IMG/VR virus record: IMGVR_UViG_2718217647_000001
Reading direction: 5' to 3' (one strand)
Source: a virus
Length of the DNA: 64,000 nt
A program made the position numbers and the translations under genes. The notes under the pieces are model-generated. The model did not search any database and was not told where the DNA came from. It saw only the letters and a list, made by a program, of their open reading frames with translations. Of this stretch, positions 51,569-61,719 are shown one piece after another; within the stretch, counting starts at the first letter, position 1; every line of letters begins with the position of its first letter.

Positions 51569-51679
51569 TCTCCCAGCAACGAATCGTATTTAACAAAGGA
51601 CTGATCTATAACATAAGCTTTAGACCTAAAGATATTTCCCATGACTCCGATATATTTATTTGAGGGGGGTGGCAGATAC

Positions 51680-52246
51680 ATGAAAAAAGTGGTATCAATG
51701 AATGAGCTAATATGGGGTACATTATTTTCAACAGTAATCGTGATGGAAATAATTGTCTTATTCATTGAAACTACTTTAAATACATTTTATTTGTTCTTAA
51801 TAATGGCTAGTATTATTTTATTAGAGTGGTTGATAATTTTTTTGATTCTTAAGTATGTTTTAGGTAAAGGATTACCATTAGATTCTATTCTTAGTCCATT
51901 CGGATTTATTGAACCACATGTAGGAAGAAAATGTCGTAAAAATATTTTTTATTTCGAAAAGGTTTGTCTTGAGATTACTATTATTGCTATTCAGAAAAAG
52001 AAAGATATCCTTATTGATTCATGGTTAATATCAAAGCGAAATCTAGAGAAATATTTTGGAAAATCGGTAGAATATTTTGGACCTACTTGCATCCAAAAAT
52101 TTGTAAATTGGATTAATAGGGTAACCTTTCAGCGAAAAAATAGGAAGAAATGTATCCGATGTGTTATTCACACTAATGCGCTTACAAGTGAACAAATAGG
52201 GGTAATTGATGCAAAACTTAAAGAATTAGAAGAGAGAAATAATTAA
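51680..52246 (+). CDS. AT-rich membrane moron
   Basis: Two TM helices; followed by a GAAA-loop terminator. Confidence 0.65.
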   Translation: MKKVVSMNELIWGTLFSTVIVMEIIVLFIETTLNTFYLFLIMASIILLEWLIIFLILKYVLGKGLPLDSILSPFGFIEPHVGRKCRKNIFYFEKVCLEITIIAIQKKKDILIDSWLISKRNLEKYFGKSVEYFGPTCIQKFVNWINRVTFQRKNRKKCIRCVIHTNALTSEQIGVIDAKLKELEERNN

Positions 52247-52298: not shown

Positions 52299-54476
52299 AT
52301 GCTAGCAGCAGAGTACATGGAAGTGCTTAATATCAATGATTCCCGTTCCGCCTTCCTCAGCCCATCTTCTGATGGGGTAAAACAGGCCAGACTGAAACGG
52401 GTAGTCAACGGGGAATGCGAACTGAAGTTCATCCTCCCCCGCACTTCGGAGAAGTGGGCCTATATTGATGGCTTGCACAAGATCAGGGTCAATGGCCATA
52501 TCTTTTGGATCGTCGGGACCGAGGAGGAGAGGGATCAGCAGGGGAGGCTGCTCTCAAACGTCCAATGTGAAGAGATCTGGGTCAAGGACCTGGGGGCTAA
52601 GAGAGCCAATTACCTAACGGTTGAGATCCTCAGCTCCACAGCTGAAAATGCCTTGACAACTCTTCTGGCCGGTACCGGGTGGTCCATAGGATTAGTTACT
52701 GTGGGCACCGACCTTCACGATCTGGAGACCGAAAAGGGGACCTGTCTATCGAACCTTAAAAAGGTCCAGGAGCTCTGGGGCGGAATTCTCGATTTCAACA
52801 GCGCCGAAAAGAAGGTTAATCTATTCGCTGATGCCGACTTCGGGCAGAATCGTGGGGTGCAGTTCCGGTACGGGAAGAATCTTAAATCTATTTCCCGGAA
52901 GATTGATTACAATGTGATAACCAGGCTTTTCCCATTCGGCAAGGATGACCTTGACATCAGCTCAGTAAACGAAGAGCATCTGTACATTGATAACTTCCAA
53001 TATACAACCGAGGTATGGGAGGATAACTGGGTCAATCAGGACTATGATGACCCGGCCGAACTTAAGGCGAAAGCTATTGAGTATCTTGACACAATATCCC
53101 GACCCCGGGCAAATTACGCTGGCGAAGTAGATGATCTTTCCTCCCTCACGGGCTATGAAGTAGAGTCCTTTGAATACGGAGACTGGATCACTATATTTGA
53201 TCCGGACATTGCCCCCACCGGCATTTTAAATCGGATATATCAATATGAGTATGACGTGTTCCAGCCATGGGATGCCGATGTAGAATTCGGCGATCCACAG
53301 GAGACCCTGGCTGACATCCTGGCCGGCCACCAGGTGGCAGCTGAGGTCGTGAATAACGTGGTAGTTAAGAACCCTACGCTTCAGAACCTGTTTAAGGGGT
53401 TCGTCAATACCTTTACGACTCTCATCAATTCCGCAAACGGTAAACTTAGGTGGGAGAATGGGGTACTTGAGGCAATTGAGGTAGATGGAAGCGGTAATGA
53501 AACCGGCCAGCGGGTCCGGTTGACACCCGGGGGGTTAGGCATCAGTGAGGATTTTGGACAAACATATGTTACAGCTGTTACAGGTCAAGGCATACTTGGG
53601 GATAAGGTTATCGCTAATTCGGCTTATGTGCTTAGAATTTTGACTGGTGGTATCTCAATCCAGGACGGCCTCTCGGACGATCAGATTGCCGGCGCCGGCA
53701 CATGGAATGCAGCTGCAACGATTGCTGCCAATTCCGTACAGAAAGGGGTGCCCTATAACAGCGTGTCGATTACCCCGCTGGATGGGATCTTAGCTGCTTT
53801 GGCAAATGGAAACTATACTCGCCTTTCAGGATTAGGGCTAAAACATCAGATAGTTTTGTCGGCTACCTTAGCAAGTCCCGGAATGACCGATAGTGCAACT
53901 ACAGCAACACTGACGTCAGACGTTTTACTACCAGCCCCATTTTCTCTCCAAATAGATAATGAAATCATGATAGTCAGGACAAAAAGCGGGACTTCTTTAA
54001 GTGATATATTAAGGGGCCAAAGTGGATCTACAGCAACAAGTCACAATGCAGAAACACCAATTCTGCTTATCAAGGATTACCACTTTTTGACAGAGATAAG
54101 TAGAGTATCAACGGTAGGAGGTGGGTCTCATACTTCTTCCCCATGGTGGGATGAATCAGACGTTTTGTCACAAGTCCCTATAATTACGATTCAGTTGCCT
54201 GAAGATTTCAAAGAAAAGATATTTAAAATATCTGTAGAACCACGCATGAGTGATGCAAATATGAATTATATGTTTGACGGATTTACTTTTGCAGGTTCAG
54301 GAAGCGCATACTGGCAATTAAGAAAAGTTATTTGCGAGGTAGTGGGGACGCCTGATTTTGTAAATGCAACCTTTCAAATTAAGGCATATGCTCAATTTAG
54401 ACGGGGGACCTCGGTTACAACCACATCTTACGAAGGATGTTCCGGAATAGATGTCACTTATACCGTTACTGCATAA
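52299..54476 (+). CDS. Tail spike/hub (Tal, prophage tail endopeptidase-like)
   Basis: GVQFRYGKNLKSISR, ITRLFPFGKD, GDWITIFD, FGDP motifs. Confidence 0.85.
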   Translation: MLAAEYMEVLNINDSRSAFLSPSSDGVKQARLKRVVNGECELKFILPRTSEKWAYIDGLHKIRVNGHIFWIVGTEEERDQQGRLLSNVQCEEIWVKDLGAKRANYLTVEILSSTAENALTTLLAGTGWSIGLVTVGTDLHDLETEKGTCLSNLKKVQELWGGILDFNSAEKKVNLFADADFGQNRGVQFRYGKNLKSISRKIDYNVITRLFPFGKDDLDISSVNEEHLYIDNFQYTTEVWEDNWVNQDYDDPAELKAKAIEYLDTISRPRANYAGEVDDLSSLTGYEVESFEYGDWITIFDPDIAPTGILNRIYQYEYDVFQPWDADVEFGDPQETLADILAGHQVAAEVVNNVVVKNPTLQNLFKGFVNTFTTLINSANGKLRWENGVLEAIEVDGSGNETGQRVRLTPGGLGISEDFGQTYVTAVTGQGILGDKVIANSAYVLRILTGGISIQDGLSDDQIAGAGTWNAAATIAANSVQKGVPYNSVSITPLDGILAALANGNYTRLSGLGLKHQIVLSATLASPGMTDSATTATLTSDVLLPAPFSLQIDNEIMIVRTKSGTSLSDILRGQSGSTATSHNAETPILLIKDYHFLTEISRVSTVGGGSHTSSPWWDESDVLSQVPIITIQLPEDFKEKIFKISVEPRMSDANMNYMFDGFTFAGSGSAYWQLRKVICEVVGTPDFVNATFQIKAYAQFRRGTSVTTTSYEGCSGIDVTYTVTA

Positions 54477-54613
54477 GTCCAGCTAAGAAAAGTCAAGCAA
54501 AAAAATAAAAAAGTTAGAAATATTATGCTGGGGCAAAAAAGGGTAACCTTAACAAAGCTTTTTCAGACATTGAAAAAAGCGCACCTTGGCAATGTATAAA
54601 AAATTATGTATGT

Positions 54614-54657
54614 TTATGCAGCATTCGTTAGCTTTACTGAATATTCTGCGCAATGCT
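54614..54657 (-). pseudogene. Displaced C-terminal 13 codons of the IS110 transposase
   Basis: After removing IS3 and one TSD the frame reads ...KTPDQ-HCAEYSVKLTNAA*. Confidence 0.8.
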
Positions 54658-54963
54658 TATGGTGGACTACTTTGTCAAGACAATTTTTTGACCCTGTTTA
54701 AGGTGTATTCACACCACCTTTCGCTCCTTGATAATTGTATATAATTGTAAGTTTATTTAAAAACGTATTGGTAATTCCGTTAATTATTTCCACTGGATTA
54801 GATATTATGTCAAGGGTCGGCTTTGCCGACAGCGAAGCTGCTTGCCCTTGACATGTTGATCAGCAAGACCCTTTTGTTTCCGGTCTGTTCATAACAGACC
54901 GGTTGCCTCCCGGCGAGGGCGGGGTGGTTTGGAGGGGCAGAGCCCTTCCAGGGTTTTAAGAAG

Positions 54964-55848
54964 TCATTTTTTAAAGTAAACTTCTGCCGGAGTAAGTTCC
55001 TTCAATGCTTGGTGTGGCCGGTATGTGTTGTAGCTTTCAAGATATCTTCCAATACCATACCTGGCTTCTCTAGGGCTTGCATAATCATTAATATATATTT
55101 CTTGGTACTTAACAGATCTCCATAATCGTTCTGTGAAAATGTTATCTAATGCCCGGCCTCTTCCGTCCATGCTAATTTGGATGCTACTATTTATCAGCGT
55201 ATCTATATATCGTCTGGATGTAAATTGGCTACCCTGATCGCTATTGGCAATTACAGGTTTTCCGATTTTTAGACCTGCTTCCAATGCGGAAAGAACAAAA
55301 TCAACTTCAAGGTTATCACTTAATTCCCATGAAACCACGTAACGTGAATACCAGTCCAGAAATGCTACAAGGTAAAGCCAGCCGCGTCGTAAGCGGACAT
55401 AGGTAATATCAGTTCCCCAAATATGGTTTGGATAACTGGCGGTAATATTTCTAAGTAGGTATGGATAAACCTTATGTTCATGGTTTCTTTTGCTGAGGTT
55501 AGGACCAGGATGTATTGCAACCAAGCCCATTTCACGCATATATTTTTGAACCGTTGACCGACTAACCAAGTGTCCCTCTCGTTTTAAGACCGTCGTAATA
55601 CTTCTCGAACCGAAATAGGGTGATTTAGTATAAATTTCGTCAATGGCATGCTTAAGCCGAATTTCCTCTTCTGATGGTGGAACTGGTTTATAGTAAAGAC
55701 TGCTCCGATTGAGAGAAAGCATTTGAGCTTGCACAAAAACGGACATTTCGGGATCGTCAAAATCTACAAGGGCAATCCGTTCACTTCTTGGCAGGGTCGA
55801 TCCCAGATTTTTTTTTAAGCCAATTGAATTGGGCGGTGACCTCTCCAA
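54964..55848 (-). CDS. IS3 transposase OrfB
   Basis: Identical protein. Confidence 0.95.
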   Translation of the reverse strand: MERSPPNSIGLKKNLGSTLPRSERIALVDFDDPEMSVFVQAQMLSLNRSSLYYKPVPPSEEEIRLKHAIDEIYTKSPYFGSRSITTVLKREGHLVSRSTVQKYMREMGLVAIHPGPNLSKRNHEHKVYPYLLRNITASYPNHIWGTDITYVRLRRGWLYLVAFLDWYSRYVVSWELSDNLEVDFVLSALEAGLKIGKPVIANSDQGSQFTSRRYIDTLINSSIQISMDGRGRALDNIFTERLWRSVKYQEIYINDYASPREARYGIGRYLESYNTYRPHQALKELTPAEVYFKK

Positions 55849-56077
55849 GCTGGGTATACAGATCTTGCACTTGCTTTTTTAGATCTTCTTTTTCGTCATC
55901 CTTCCTGCGTCCATCTGCAAGTATCTGAGGGAGCCCTTCAATTGCTTCTTTCTTCCAACTAGACAGCTGATTTGGATGTACTTCATATTCGGCAGCAAGC
56001 TGGGATATGGATTTTTCTTCCTTTAGAATTTCCAGTACAACCTTGGCTTTAAATTCTCCTGTAAATGTTTTTCGCAT
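55781..56077 (-). CDS. IS3 transposase OrfA
   Basis: Identical protein. Confidence 0.95.
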   Translation of the reverse strand: MRKTFTGEFKAKVVLEILKEEKSISQLAAEYEVHPNQLSSWKKEAIEGLPQILADGRRKDDEKEDLKKQVQDLYTQLGEVTAQFNWLKKKSGIDPAKK

Positions 56078-56131
56078 ACCTCATTATACACTTTAAATCA
56101 GGCTGTTTTGTTGTCTAGTTTTCTTAGTCCA

Positions 56132-57394
56132 TTATAGCTGATCCGGAGTTTTCATCTCATATGGTTTGTTATCCCGGAGCATGGCAAATATCGTGTTGCA
56201 CACCTTATGCATAACTGCACCAAGTGCAACCATCTTACATTTAGATTGACACTTTTTCAGGTAAAATTCACGCAGGACAGGGTTCTTAGCAACTCCTTTC
56301 TTATCACTGCCGATTGCCTGAAGTGCCATCGTGTAAACTACTCTGCGAGCCAGAGCAGATCCCCGCTTGGAAATCTTGACATCGGTGCCCTTAAAGTTAC
56401 CGGACTGCTTTACCTCCGGGTCTAATCCAAAGTAAGCATAAAGCTGTTTTGGTTTACGGAAAGCGCCGAAATCACCGATTTCGCACATAAGAGTTACCGC
56501 GCTTAGGAAACCGGCACCTCGATAGGATTCCAGCAAATGAATCTGCTGGATAAAGGGTTCTTCCGGATGGGCATCCACAATGGAGGCCATCTCAGAAAGA
56601 ACAGCCTGAGTCTCCTCATCATATTTCTGAATGAAAGAGATATGTTGGCAGATCAGAAAAAAGTTGCTGTCCAGAGCATGGCCGAAAGAAAAAGATTCTT
56701 TAGCTGCCAGTACCAGTTGCTCATATTTTGCAGCGGCGGAGGCAATCCCTTTCCTGGAGGCTTTTGCAATGGCAGGAATCAAGGTGCTGGGGTCGGCATC
56801 AAGGATAGCCTGAGGGGAGGTATATTCCTTTAAAATCATAAGAGAAGCACTTCCCGTCACTTTGGAGAAGATACCGAGGTATTGCGGAAAAGCAACCCGG
56901 AGCTGGCCTAAAAGCTTGTTCACATAAGCAGAACGGGCATCCATGAGATTGTAATATTCCCTAGTAAGATTGCGCAGGTTTAAAACCAGGTCTGTCGGTA
57001 TGAGAGATAACTTGATGTTTGGATTCAAACCGAGGATGGCAGCCTTTTTGGAATCGAAGCTATCATTATGAACTTTCCTGATGTTCATGTTTCTGCTAGA
57101 ATTGGTGATGAGGGGATTGATGACGGAAACGTCAAATCCCGACTCACGGAGATAGCAGAAGAGAGGGAAATGGTAGATTCCCGTGGATTCCAGAAAGATA
57201 CGAGCTTTCAAGGAATTCAACTCTTCTGCTTTTTTAATTCTGTCAACGGCAGAAGAGAGAGAATCCAACCGATTATGAAAAATCTTAAAGGGCTTACCAA
57301 GAAGTTGGAAATTGGGGAGTGCTATGGACATTTCAGAGAAATCGGCACCCACATCAATCCCAACAGATAAATAAGGTTCAAAAGTTTGGTGCAT
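56132..57394 (-). CDS. IS110-family recombinase/transposase, C-terminally clipped by IS3
   Basis: DEDD RuvC motifs VGIDVG / FLESTG / NDSFDS; Tnp domain YFGLDPEVKQSG; ATG 57394 behind AAGGAG. Confidence 0.92.
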   Translation of the reverse strand: MHQTFEPYLSVGIDVGADFSEMSIALPNFQLLGKPFKIFHNRLDSLSSAVDRIKKAEELNSLKARIFLESTGIYHFPLFCYLRESGFDVSVINPLITNSSRNMNIRKVHNDSFDSKKAAILGLNPNIKLSLIPTDLVLNLRNLTREYYNLMDARSAYVNKLLGQLRVAFPQYLGIFSKVTGSASLMILKEYTSPQAILDADPSTLIPAIAKASRKGIASAAAKYEQLVLAAKESFSFGHALDSNFFLICQHISFIQKYDEETQAVLSEMASIVDAHPEEPFIQQIHLLESYRGAGFLSAVTLMCEIGDFGAFRKPKQLYAYFGLDPEVKQSGNFKGTDVKISKRGSALARRVVYTMALQAIGSDKKGVAKNPVLREFYLKKCQSKCKMVALGAVMHKVCNTIFAMLRDNKPYEMKTPDQL

Positions 57395-57399
57395 GAGTA

Positions 57400-57736
57400 A
57401 TCTCCTTTCGAATAGGCATCCATTTCCAGACAATAGCTACACAGCCTAGCATGTGATGCAGGTATAGCACAAAGGCTCCCAACCAGCCGAATCATAAAGG
57501 ACTATTGAATGGATTAATTGACTTATTTACAGGTATAGGGCAATAAGAAAAGCCCGCCCTAGGAGGAGTCCATTTATCTTCCTATTCAACAAATGAATAT
57601 ACCTTAAAAACGGTCTGGTGTCTATTAGGAGCCTGTGTACATGATGAATAAAAATACATTGTTTTAAAGTTGGAAGATAGGAAAGAAACCAGACTACTCT
57701 TTGTCCAACTTAGGTATAAAAAATTATTAACCATAT
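57400..57736 (-). ncRNA. Candidate bridge/seek RNA in the IS110 left non-coding end
   Basis: About 340-nt leader; contains CTTTTCTTA (57552-57544), identical to the donor sequence abutting the core. Confidence 0.5.
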
Positions 57737-57777
57737 AGCTTTAATGCTATATCAATATGATACTAGGAGGGGTAAAA

Positions 57778-58083
57778 GTGTTATTGCTTTACAAAAAGTC
57801 GACTGGTCATATTGTAGGGACAAACAATAGTCCCCTGGCTACGTTTGAAAACATGTATCCCCATGCTACAGAAGAATTCAAGCAAATGTATGGGGGATTA
57901 GTAGTAGAAGATGATCCTGAATATGACAGAAATAGGCAATGGTATAAAGTTGAAGATGATATTAGGGTTGTAAGACTGGAATCTCCTTGGATTGAAGAAC
58001 AGGTTAGACCACCAGATCCGGGAGATCAGCGTATTCTTGACTTAGAACTGGCTGTAGCCGCTATCCTGGGAGGTGCGTCATGA
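57778..58083 (+). CDS. Hypothetical tail-fibre-assembly-like protein
   Basis: SD AGGAGG; C-terminal QRILDLELAVAAILGG. Confidence 0.65.
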   Translation: MLLLYKKSTGHIVGTNNSPLATFENMYPHATEEFKQMYGGLVVEDDPEYDRNRQWYKVEDDIRVVRLESPWIEEQVRPPDPGDQRILDLELAVAAILGGAS

Positions 58084-59962: not shown

Positions 59963-60568
59963 ATGGATCCAAAGCTTTTTATTGAGAATTGCTTTCCTAA
60001 AAAAGTACAAATGGAATTTTTAAGCTGTGTTCGGGATGGCTATAAGTTAGCCGATAGCATGTATGAATTATTGCCTGTTAAAGCTAAATATTTCGATGAG
60101 TTTAGAGTCAGAGCAATTAATTATACTGTTGAGGCGACTCTTATTTATGCAGTCAAACAAAACAAAATACCGTTTAATTGGATAGAAGAAAGAAACTCTG
60201 CTAACAACTGCTCACATCTTAAACTACATAGGGATGATGTTATTTTGACCGTAAGTCAAGTTGAAAGAAGGCGTTTAATGCCTAGGGAGGCTGTGTTCCG
60301 TACTTATCACAGTCAAGGAAACCAAATGTCCCTTTTTGAAGAGTTGTTAGGAGAGATTCCTTATGTTATTTTAACACATGGATATAAATCTAAAGAACCA
60401 AAGTTTGCGATGCTTGGGATGCCAGAACCACCATCTGCAATGGGTTGGGCCGGTGAACCTATTGACATAACAGATTCAATAGTTGTTGGGAGTATCGAAG
60501 AAAGAATTCCAGAAAAAGATGCTTTTAAAATGAAGAATGAGGTCCTTGAAAGGTTGAGTCGAGAATGA
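59963..60568 (+). CDS. Hypothetical protein coupled to the XRE-peptidase gene
   Basis: SD AAGGAGG; ATGA overlap with the next gene. Confidence 0.8.
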   Translation: MDPKLFIENCFPKKVQMEFLSCVRDGYKLADSMYELLPVKAKYFDEFRVRAINYTVEATLIYAVKQNKIPFNWIEERNSANNCSHLKLHRDDVILTVSQVERRRLMPREAVFRTYHSQGNQMSLFEELLGEIPYVILTHGYKSKEPKFAMLGMPEPPSAMGWAGEPIDITDSIVVGSIEERIPEKDAFKMKNEVLERLSRE

Positions 60569-61719
60569 GAAACAGTAATATGATATATGATGTTAATCCT
60601 TTGCCAGAAAGAATTAAAGAAGCTAGGATGGCTAAGGGTTATACTATGTCTCAGTTAGCTGAAAAACTGAGTATTTCTCGCCAAGCGATTTCCCAGTACG
60701 AGCTAGGTGTTAATACCCCCAAGGATGAAGTTTTTAGTAAAATGGTTGATTTTTTGGGGTTTCCAGTTAATTATTTTTACAAGCCAATTGAATATCGGTT
60801 AAATAATCCAGTTTTTTTTAGAAGCTTTAAAACAGCTGAAAAACGGGTTCGTGATATTTCGAGGGTACGAATTGGATGGATGATTGAAATACTTTTATAT
60901 TTAAAAAGATATATAGAATTTGAACAAGTTACTGAAGGTTTAATAAGATCAGCACCATCAAAAGATGATTATTACGATGACGAAATTGAAGAAATAGCTC
61001 TAAAAGTTAGAAAAAGTTTTGGACTAGGTTTAGGACCAATTAGTGATGTTGCCTTGCTGTTAGAAAATCATGGTTTTATTGTTTCCAAAATGGCATTAAA
61101 TGAACAAAAAGTAGATGCTTGTTCAGTACTTAATACTTTTGAAGATAGAAGGCCGCTTATTTTTTTGACTGAGGATAAAACTGCTGTTCATTCTAGGTTT
61201 GATGTAGCGCATGAACTAGGACATGTTGTTTTACATTCTTGGGTAGATGAGGAATATTTAGAAGATCCTCAGAATCTGAAAAGAATTGAAAAAGAAGCAT
61301 TTAGATTTGCATCAGCATTTTTAATGCCAGAGGAAACCTTCTCAAGAGAAATTTATTCAACTTCGCTTGAATCTTTTTTACCATTAAAAAAGCGATGGAA
61401 AGTATCAATTCAAGCGATGATTCGTAGATGTTATGACCTTGAGCTATTTAATCAGAATCAATATGAATATTTACAACGACAGATTTCTTCTAGGAGGGCC
61501 AGAATAAATGAGCCATTAGATGATGAGATCTGTCATGAGCAACCTAAGACTCTGAAAAAGGCAATGCAGATGTTAATTGATCATAAGGTTCAGACTCCAG
61601 TAGAAATTGTAGAAAATTTACGTCTTCCAGTTGATCAAATTGAAATGCTTTGTGGATTAGAAAAAGGGATATTGCGTGATAAAAAGGAACCTTACTTGAG
61701 AATTGTTAAGAACAATTAA
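60565..61719 (+). CDS. XRE HTH + ImmA/IrrE (DUF955) Zn-peptidase fusion
   Basis: YTMSQLAEKLSISRQAISQYELG HTH; RFDVAHELGH; EKEAFRFASAFLMP. Confidence 0.92.
   Translation: MRNSNMIYDVNPLPERIKEARMAKGYTMSQLAEKLSISRQAISQYELGVNTPKDEVFSKMVDFLGFPVNYFYKPIEYRLNNPVFFRSFKTAEKRVRDISRVRIGWMIEILLYLKRYIEFEQVTEGLIRSAPSKDDYYDDEIEEIALKVRKSFGLGLGPISDVALLLENHGFIVSKMALNEQKVDACSVLNTFEDRRPLIFLTEDKTAVHSRFDVAHELGHVVLHSWVDEEYLEDPQNLKRIEKEAFRFASAFLMPEETFSREIYSTSLESFLPLKKRWKVSIQAMIRRCYDLELFNQNQYEYLQRQISSRRARINEPLDDEICHEQPKTLKKAMQMLIDHKVQTPVEIVENLRLPVDQIEMLCGLEKGILRDKKEPYLRIVKNN

What the first reader, a model, noticed from the sequence alone, without database searches (positions are those of the whole stretch)
54481..57740. 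IS110 element with inferable AGCT core, junction promoter and bridge-RNA-like leader with a donor-matching guide
Seen: AGCT flanks both ends. The empty site reconstructs as GCATAAGTCC-AGCT-TTAATGC, right after the Tal stop codon. The circle junction would read TTGACT-tttcttAGCTatatggt-TAATAAT. The ~340-nt leader contains CTTTTCTTA (57552-57544), a 9-nt match to the donor arm abutting the core. Weaker 7-nt matches: TAGCTAT (57439-57433) spanning the core and ATAAGTC (57526-57520) complementary to the target flank; 7-mers can arise by chance. Established: IS110 recombinases use a bridge/seek RNA transcribed from the circular form. Inference: a divergent bridge RNA with a different core from IS621.
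Basis: partly seen in the sequence, partly recalled or inferred. Interest (0 to 1): 0.62.

Follow-up and report, generated by a model that had tools for sequence, protein, structure and literature searches.

The report
IS110 bridge element targeting ribosome-binding sites

Summary
A real IS110 bridge-RNA element, but not as described. About 100 homologous loci, some 94% identical, put its ends at a CT core as in IS621 (54476-77 and 57765-66), not at AGCT. The circle junction is TTGACT-17-TATCAT; the spacer is 17 bp in 61/61 loci. The empty site is a Shine-Dalgarno between the tail-gene stop and the next start, an arrangement matched by an uninterrupted homologous phage locus.

The real guides are LTG ACTCCTCCT, RTG ATAAG, handshake TC, LDG GGCTGG and RDG ATGCTAG. 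The LTG covaries with insertion sites (5.3 vs 3.9 of 7 matches, p<5e-5; kin not fully independent); RTG, RDG and handshake show compensatory changes too. 39/49 sites lie 5-16 nt before a start codon (control 16%). One lineage is retargeted to a REP-like repeat.

Expression was not tested. RBS targeting is known for IS900, and this scan noted RBS-targeting bridge/seek elements on other DNA. Verdict: new member of a known kind.

The parts
54476..57766 (-). Whole IS110 element including both CT cores and the nested IS3 (1807 bp counting one core once IS3 and one TSD are removed)
   Evidence: Ends fixed by 92-94% identical copies at other sites, five-copy genome; length
57765..57766 (-). Left CT core (AG on +; first two bases of the regenerated AGGAGGGG Shine-Dalgarno)
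   Evidence: CT[AT]GTATHAT left end in 74 loci
54476..54477 (-). Right CT core (AG on +; overlaps last base of the tail-gene stop codon TAA)
   Evidence: TAGCTGGACT right end in 82 loci
54491..54496 (-). -35 box TTGACT in the right end
   Evidence: 17-bp spacer to the -10 across the CT junction in 61/61 loci
57757..57762 (-). -10 box TATCAT in the left end (TATAAT or TATTAT in all relatives)
57734..57751 (-).
   Evidence: fold; alignment
57400..57590 (-). Conserved structured core of the bridge RNA (target-binding and donor-binding loops)
   Evidence: 13 of 30 pairs with two-sided changes, 93% of cells paired vs 26-48% for slid controls; RNAalifold; no Rfam match
57561..57569 (-). Left target guide ACTCCTCCT; 8/9 match to the left flank plus core ACCCCTC-CT
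   Evidence: covariation with 53 sites, 24 guide groups
57529..57560 (-).
   Evidence: six pairs, all with compensatory changes; loop sequence variable
57522..57526 (-). Right target guide ATAAG, reverse complement of core plus right flank CT-TAT
   Evidence: position-10 T/non-T table 42/2/1/7, Fisher p=2e-6, kin not independent
57520..57521 (-). Handshake guide TC, complementary to donor positions 6-7 (GA)
   Evidence: GA/TC in 71 loci, GT/AC in 4, 2 distant loci unpaired
57481..57488 (-). Left donor guide GGCTGGTT vs donor AGCTGGAC (GCTGG exact, position 7 mismatched)
   Evidence: no compensatory variation available to test it
57446..57452 (-). Right donor guide ATGCTAG vs reverse complement of core plus left end (6/7 and one G-T wobble)
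   Evidence: LE/guide CTAG/CTAG 67, CTTG/CAAG 6, CTGG/CCAG 3, mismatched 3
56132..57394 (-). IS110 recombinase, 420 aa as it stands; DEDD D14/E69/D111/D114 and S331 present; last 13 residues replaced by one Leu
   Evidence: Pfam PF01548+PF02371, NF033542 above cut-off, alignment, match to IS621 chain E=2e-12
54658..56136 (-). Nested IS3-family element, 1479 bp, orfA 56077-55781 and orfB to 54964; 3-bp duplication GCT (54655-57, 56137-39); 8 copies in the genome
54614..54657 (-). Separated 3' end of the recombinase gene (last codons and stop)
   Evidence: joined reading gives 432 aa, the length of the 94% homologues
52299..54476 (+). Prophage tail endopeptidase (Tal-like) gene, left intact by the insertion
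   Evidence: PF06605, PHROG tail hits
57765..57780 (+). Regenerated Shine-Dalgarno AGGAGGGG and GTG start of the downstream 101-aa phage gene

Best explanation
An IS110-group element that works like IS621. On excision the right and left ends join across a CT core and form a sigma70/sigmaA promoter (TTGACT-17-TATCAT) that transcribes the left end. The RNA carries a target-binding loop (LTG ACTCCTCCT, RTG ATAAG) and a donor-binding loop (LDG GGCTGG, RDG ATGCTAG), plus handshake bases. Its target guide reads the reverse complement of a Shine-Dalgarno (AAGGAGG), so the element inserts inside RBSs, opposite to the host gene, and the retained AG core rebuilds AGGAGG so the gene keeps its RBS. This copy entered the RBS between a prophage tail gene and the next gene, and was later hit by an IS3 that clipped 13 C-terminal residues. 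SHOWN by comparison: ends, core, promoter geometry, guide-target and guide-donor covariation, RNA stems, IS3 insertion. INFERRED from IS621: circle formation, transcription, RNA binding, catalysis, and that RBS targeting is adaptive.
For: Ends and CT core. LTG vs left flank 5.32 matches of 7 vs 3.88+/-0.18 permuted, none of 20,000 permutations reaching it; sliding the guide 1-3 nt drops the mean to 2.2-3.3. Distinctive cases: five CCCC-CT sites for guide ACACCCC; CCGTCCC-CT for guide CCGTCCC; sister elements on one plasmid with guides TCGCCAC and TCGTCTC at sites ATACCAC and TCGTCTC. RDG three-state covariation. Handshake GA/TC vs GT/AC, matching the rule in PMC11208158. 39/49 sites before a start codon vs 174/1080 control. 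Catalytic residues.
Against: No expression, binding or circle data. The left donor guide matches only GCTGG exactly, mismatches position 7, and varies while the donor does not. Related loci are not independent, so p-values overstate. Several sites fit best with a 1-nt slip (L041, L092, L099, L105, L120). The empty site comes from a ~50% identical phage, not the same prophage; the exact 21-mer was not found in viral contigs. The window's -10 is a one-off variant and the enzyme is clipped, so this copy may be inactive.
Confidence: 0.92

Rival explanations
1. One reading: AGCT core, ends at 54481 and 57740, donor guide CTTTTCTTA, a divergent bridge RNA with a non-IS621 core.
For: AGCT does occur near both ends and gives a 17-bp spacer to a TAATAAT; the 9-mer is present.
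Against: Near-identical copies at other sites extend 26 bp beyond the left AGCT and 5 bp beyond the right one. The left AGCT is absent in many relatives. The 9-mer changes while the donor does not. The implied empty site keeps element DNA in the intergenic gap.
Confidence: 0.02
2. Target choice is set by the protein or by a general preference for RBS regions; the CCTCCT in the leader is a coincidence, or a relic of self-similarity, not a guide.
For: Most guides and most targets share CCTC, so much of the match is invariant; positions 1-3 match only 57-70%.
Against: The match exceeds permutation among guides that all share that bias. Non-SD guides go with non-SD sites (CCGTCCC lineage; CCAC and TCGTCTC sisters at near-identical proteins). 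RTG, RDG and handshake also covary.
Confidence: 0.04
3. The family is as described but this copy is dead: the IS3 truncation and the TATCAT -10 abolish activity. Compatible with the best explanation; concerns this copy only.
For: Single copy in the genome by DNA, protein and RNA-model search; last 13 residues lost; unique -10 variant.
Against: All catalytic residues, both Pfam domains, both ends and all guides are intact; the lost tail is poorly conserved.
Confidence: 0.5

Closest known systems
IS621 bridge recombinase and bridge RNA (Durrant et al. 2024, PMC11208160; Hiraizumi et al. 2024, PMC11208158)
   Same: CT core, long left end, promoter rebuilt across the RE-LE junction, order LTG-hairpin-RTG then LDG-hairpin-RDG, 9-nt LTG including the core, handshake bases, DEDD plus Ser, a G-T pair at donor position 12.
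   Different: 432-aa vs ~326-aa enzyme, distant in sequence (E=2e-12); leader ~370 nt vs ~190; LDG mismatched at position 7 throughout the clade; covariation also allows a stem that encloses both loops; target is the Shine-Dalgarno.
IS900 of Mycobacterium avium subsp. paratuberculosis (IS110 family; motif CATG-N6-TCTCCTT in PMC8141618, citing Doran et al. [quoted passage not shown]
   Same: Inserts at the reverse complement of an RBS a few bases from a start codon, opposite to the host gene.
   Different: Actinobacterial, 1451 bp, carries the antisense hed ORF; relationship to this clade and its guide were not tested here.
ISEc21 seekRNA, IS110 type (Siddiquee et al. 2024, PMC11187229)
   Same: Upstream non-coding region, junction promoter, RNA with matches to both target strands, natural retargeting in relatives.
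   Different: Different target; active RNA there is a processed 58-74 nt form; processing here is unknown.
CazIS110-1 of Caloranaerobacter azorensis (bioRxiv 10.1101/2025.10.25.684509)
   Same: Clostridial IS110 with a two-loop bridge RNA.
   Different: Its sequences were not in the text read, so kinship to this clade could not be tested.

Membership tests
IS110 family, IS110 (IS621-like) group | DEDD RuvC-like domain plus Tnp20 domain with catalytic Ser | tested here: met
   PF01548, PF02371, NF033542 187.9 bits vs cut-off 140; D14/E69/D111/D114/S331 invariant
IS110 family, IS110 (IS621-like) group | Long non-coding left end, short right end | tested here: met
   372 nt upstream of the ATG, about 138 nt downstream of the stop
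IS110 family, IS110 (IS621-like) group | Short core present at both ends, once in the empty site, no longer target duplication | tested here: met
   CT at both ends in 74 and 82 loci; empty-site arrangement from a homologous phage; same-strain empty allele not found
IS110 family, IS110 (IS621-like) group | Sigma70-type promoter formed at the RE-LE junction | tested here: met
   TTGAC[AT]-17-TAT[ATC]AT in 61/61 loci with both ends; sequence geometry only
IS621-type bridge RNA | LTG and RTG covary with the target | tested here: met
   plus out-of-sample plasmid and phage loci
IS621-type bridge RNA | RDG covaries with the right donor | tested here: met
   three matched states, one mismatched element
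IS621-type bridge RNA | LDG matches donor positions 1-8 | tested here: inconclusive
   GCTGG exact, wobble at 1 and 8, mismatch at 7 in this clade; matches position 7 in relatives with a GGT-CT donor
IS621-type bridge RNA | Handshake guides pair with the non-cognate DNA | tested here: met
   GA/TC 71, GT/AC 4; G after the RDG faces target C7 in most sites
IS621-type bridge RNA | Two tandem stem-loops with internal loops | tested here: inconclusive
   Inner stems covary; both a tandem and a nested closing stem fit the alignment
IS621-type bridge RNA | RNA is expressed, binds the recombinase and is needed for recombination | not testable with these tools
   needs RNA-seq, pull-down and a recombination assay
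IS1111 group (seekRNA in the right end) | Long downstream non-coding region and long sub-terminal inverted repeats | tested here: not met
   Long region is upstream; no terminal inverted repeat among those listed

The most novel reading that the evidence does not exclude
This Clostridia-wide clade uses a bridge-RNA architecture unlike IS621: one stem (57581-87 with the bases just before the recombinase RBS) encloses both binding loops and can switch with a tandem fold, and the clade keeps a fixed left-donor-guide mismatch at position 7 that is paired only by the target-loop handshake base. That would be a natural device for tuning insertion vs excision or for coupling RNA folding to recombinase translation.
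Probability: 0.25. Interest if true: 0.55.

Novelty: new member of a known kind. Interest (0 to 1): 0.3.

Why it matters
The mechanism is known. The value is a corrected, well-supported map of an uncharacterised Clostridia bridge-recombinase clade with exact ends, donor, four guides and handshake bases. It explains RBS targeting by an anti-Shine-Dalgarno-like guide, shows natural reprogramming (including to a REP-like repeat), and supplies intact 94%-identical orthologues as candidates for editing tools in Firmicutes. It also shows how such elements can land in operons while leaving coding sequences and the RBS intact.

Tried and rejected
CTTTTCTTA and TAGCTAT as guides: rejected. The AGCT at 56136-39 is the IS3 end plus its GCT duplication, not a third core. 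No second copy in the genome by DNA, protein or covariance model, and none in the 60 relatives searched by DNA. The exact empty-site 21-mer and the downstream gene were not found in viral contigs. Rfam gave no match. The promoter scan cannot see the junction promoter in the linear form. Literature searches for IS110 with Shine-Dalgarno or RBS and IS900 together gave no direct paper; IS900 targeting rests on PMC8141618 and the title of its reference. First extractions with loose patterns mis-registered some guides and were replaced. The tree lost several rows, so the number of independent handshake changes was not counted; one RDG label in it (L010) is a pattern error, corrected. No ISfinder look-up was available, so the clade may already have a name. 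No structure or complex prediction was run; it would not change the verdict.

Full report
Setting. The interval lies in a prophage late region: tail genes upstream, holin and endolysin genes downstream. It holds an IS110 recombinase gene on the minus strand (PF01548, PF02371; NF033542 above cut-off). The IS3 has eight near-identical copies in the genome, seven with a 3-bp duplication, GCT at this site. Removing it gives a 432-aa reading, the length of the 94% identical homologues. As it stands the enzyme is 420 aa, with the last 13 residues replaced by one Leu; D14, E69, D111, D114 and S331 are intact, corresponding to the IS621 catalytic set. The IS110 is single-copy in this genome.

Ends and core. 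Five identical copies of a 62% relative in one chromosome share sequence from CCCC-CT-AGTATAAT to TTAGCTGGA-CT-TT. Copies 92-94% identical to this element, at unrelated sites, stay aligned from window 57766-57770 down to 54475. Across all loci the right end reads TAGCTGGACT (82 loci) and the left end CT[AT]GTATHAT (74 loci). The core is CT, at 54476-77 and 57765-66, the same dinucleotide as IS621. Joining the ends gives a 17-bp spacer in 61 of 61 loci, TTGACA-17-TATAAT in 40 of them and TTGACT-17-TATCAT here.

Empty site. With the CT core the pre-insertion sequence is tail-gene stop TAA, GGAGGGGTAAAA, GTG: a Shine-Dalgarno overlapping the stop, with a 12-nt gap. A homologue of the downstream gene (52% identical) sits 15 nt after a gene ending in the same DITYTVTA-type C-terminus (48.5% over 134 aa), with GGAAGGAG in the gap. 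This is a homologous phage, not the same allele; the exact empty sequence was not found.

The RNA. The 190 nt before the recombinase RBS are conserved and structured. In 28 distinct leaders, 93% of cells pair and 13 of 30 pairs show two-sided changes, against 26-48% paired for slid controls (RNAalifold). Rfam has no match. A 9-mer match of that kind arises in about 5% of shuffles. Two closing stems fit the alignment: an IS621-like tandem one and a nested one that pairs 57581-87 with the bases just before the recombinase RBS. One sequence favours each, so this is unresolved.

Guides. LTG 57569-61 ACTCCTCCT matches the left flank plus core at 8/9. Over 53 distinct sites in 24 guide groups the cognate match is 5.32 of 7 against 3.88 +/- 0.18 for permuted guides, with no permutation of 20,000 reaching it. 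Sliding the guide by 1-3 nt drops the per-site mean from 5.49 to 2.2-3.3. Kin are not independent, so the telling cases are individual ones. Guide ACACCCC goes with CCCC-CT sites. Guide CCGTCCC goes with AACCGTCCC-CT sites in a REP-like repeat. Two sister elements on one plasmid, found after the test was set up, carry TCGCCAC and TCGTCTC and sit at ATACCAC and TCGTCTC. RTG 57526-22 ATAAG is the reverse complement of CT-TAT; at the first base after the core, guide and flank agree on T vs non-T in 49 of 52 sites. RDG 57452-46 ATGCTAG pairs with CT-AGTAT and follows the left end through three states: CTAG/CTAG 67, CTTG/CAAG 6, CTGG/CCAG 3, with 3 mismatched loci of one element. The two bases after the RTG are TC where the donor has GA (71 loci) and AC where it has GT (4 loci), the handshake rule of Hiraizumi 2024. 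The LDG is the weakest part: GCTGG is exact, but position 7 is mismatched throughout this clade and matched in relatives with a GGT-CT donor.

Target biology. 39 of 49 distinct sites have a start codon with an open frame 5-16 nt from the core on the opposite strand, mostly at 10-13 nt, against 16% at random flank positions. Annotated records agree, for example an S8 peptidase gene starting at the left end of L118. In this genome CCTCCTT occurs 1540 times, 745 of them before such a start, so targets are plentiful. Because the AG core is kept, the downstream gene keeps AGGAGG. That this is selected for is inference, as is any polar effect on the phage lysis genes.

Mechanism. By analogy with IS621 (PMC11208160, PMC11208158): excision or copy-out to a circle, junction promoter, bridge RNA, recombinase tetramer, cleavage next to CT by the RuvC/Ser sites, handshake-assisted strand exchange into an RBS. 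Ends, core, promoter geometry and covariation are shown here; transcription, binding and catalysis are not. Whether this IS3-clipped copy still moves is about even odds.

Comparison and novelty. It meets every testable criterion of the IS110 (IS621-like) group except a full LDG match, which is inconclusive, and fails the IS1111 criteria. RBS targeting in this family is old: the IS900 motif is CATG-N6-TCTCCTT (PMC8141618). Earlier notes of this scan describe RBS-targeting bridge or seek elements on other DNA; I did not test them and do not count them as support. The claimed novelty, a different core, is refuted. What remains is a well-mapped new member with natural reprogramming and two small open points, the nested stem and the fixed LDG mismatch. 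Interest 0.3.

Noticed in passing
L102-L107, left flank: A 72%-identical lineage has guide CCGTCCC-CT and inserts at the end of a GGGGACGGTT...AACCGTCCCC inverted repeat (REP-like) instead of an RBS: natural retargeting.
   Followed up: partly
L005:1365-1385: This relative inserted at TTAGCTGGT-CT, a site matching its left DONOR guide rather than its target guide; possibly a natural donor-loop-guided ('half-match') insertion. One case only.
   Followed up: partly
L120 (Clostridium phage Villandry, ON453902.1): A 50%-identical member with the same ends and guides sits between tail genes of a phage, opposite to them, like the window's copy.
   Followed up: partly
L118, L123-L128 (plasmid NZ_CP007453.1): One megaplasmid carries seven copies of three subfamilies of this clade with different guides and donors.
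   Followed up: partly
window 57757-57780: The variant -10 box TATCAT creates, on the plus strand, an in-frame ATG seven codons before the downstream GTG; relatives lack it.
   Followed up: no
window 54530-54555: A short G/C stem followed by a T run in the right end is conserved among relatives; likely the terminator of the recombinase transcript. Not tested.
   Followed up: no
window 54820-54960: The nested IS3 has a ~300-nt structured-looking 3' non-coding region, with a weak 74% match elsewhere in the genome (G000:C1:5583939-5584043).
   Followed up: no
G000:C1:1566521-1572431: Two copies of the IS3 lie about 3 kb apart in opposite orientation, a possible composite transposon.
   Followed up: no
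window 51641-52246: A low-GC 201-aa ORF with a hydrophobic N-terminus and no Pfam or PHROG match sits between tail genes; moron-like.
   Followed up: no
window 59963-61719: A 201-aa ORF without family match overlaps an HTH plus metallopeptidase (ImmA/IrrE-like) gene right after the lysis genes.
   Followed up: no
L057-L069: A group of metagenome members has leaders 60-100 nt shorter, lacking the middle hairpin but keeping both guide loops; useful for defining a minimal RNA.
   Followed up: no
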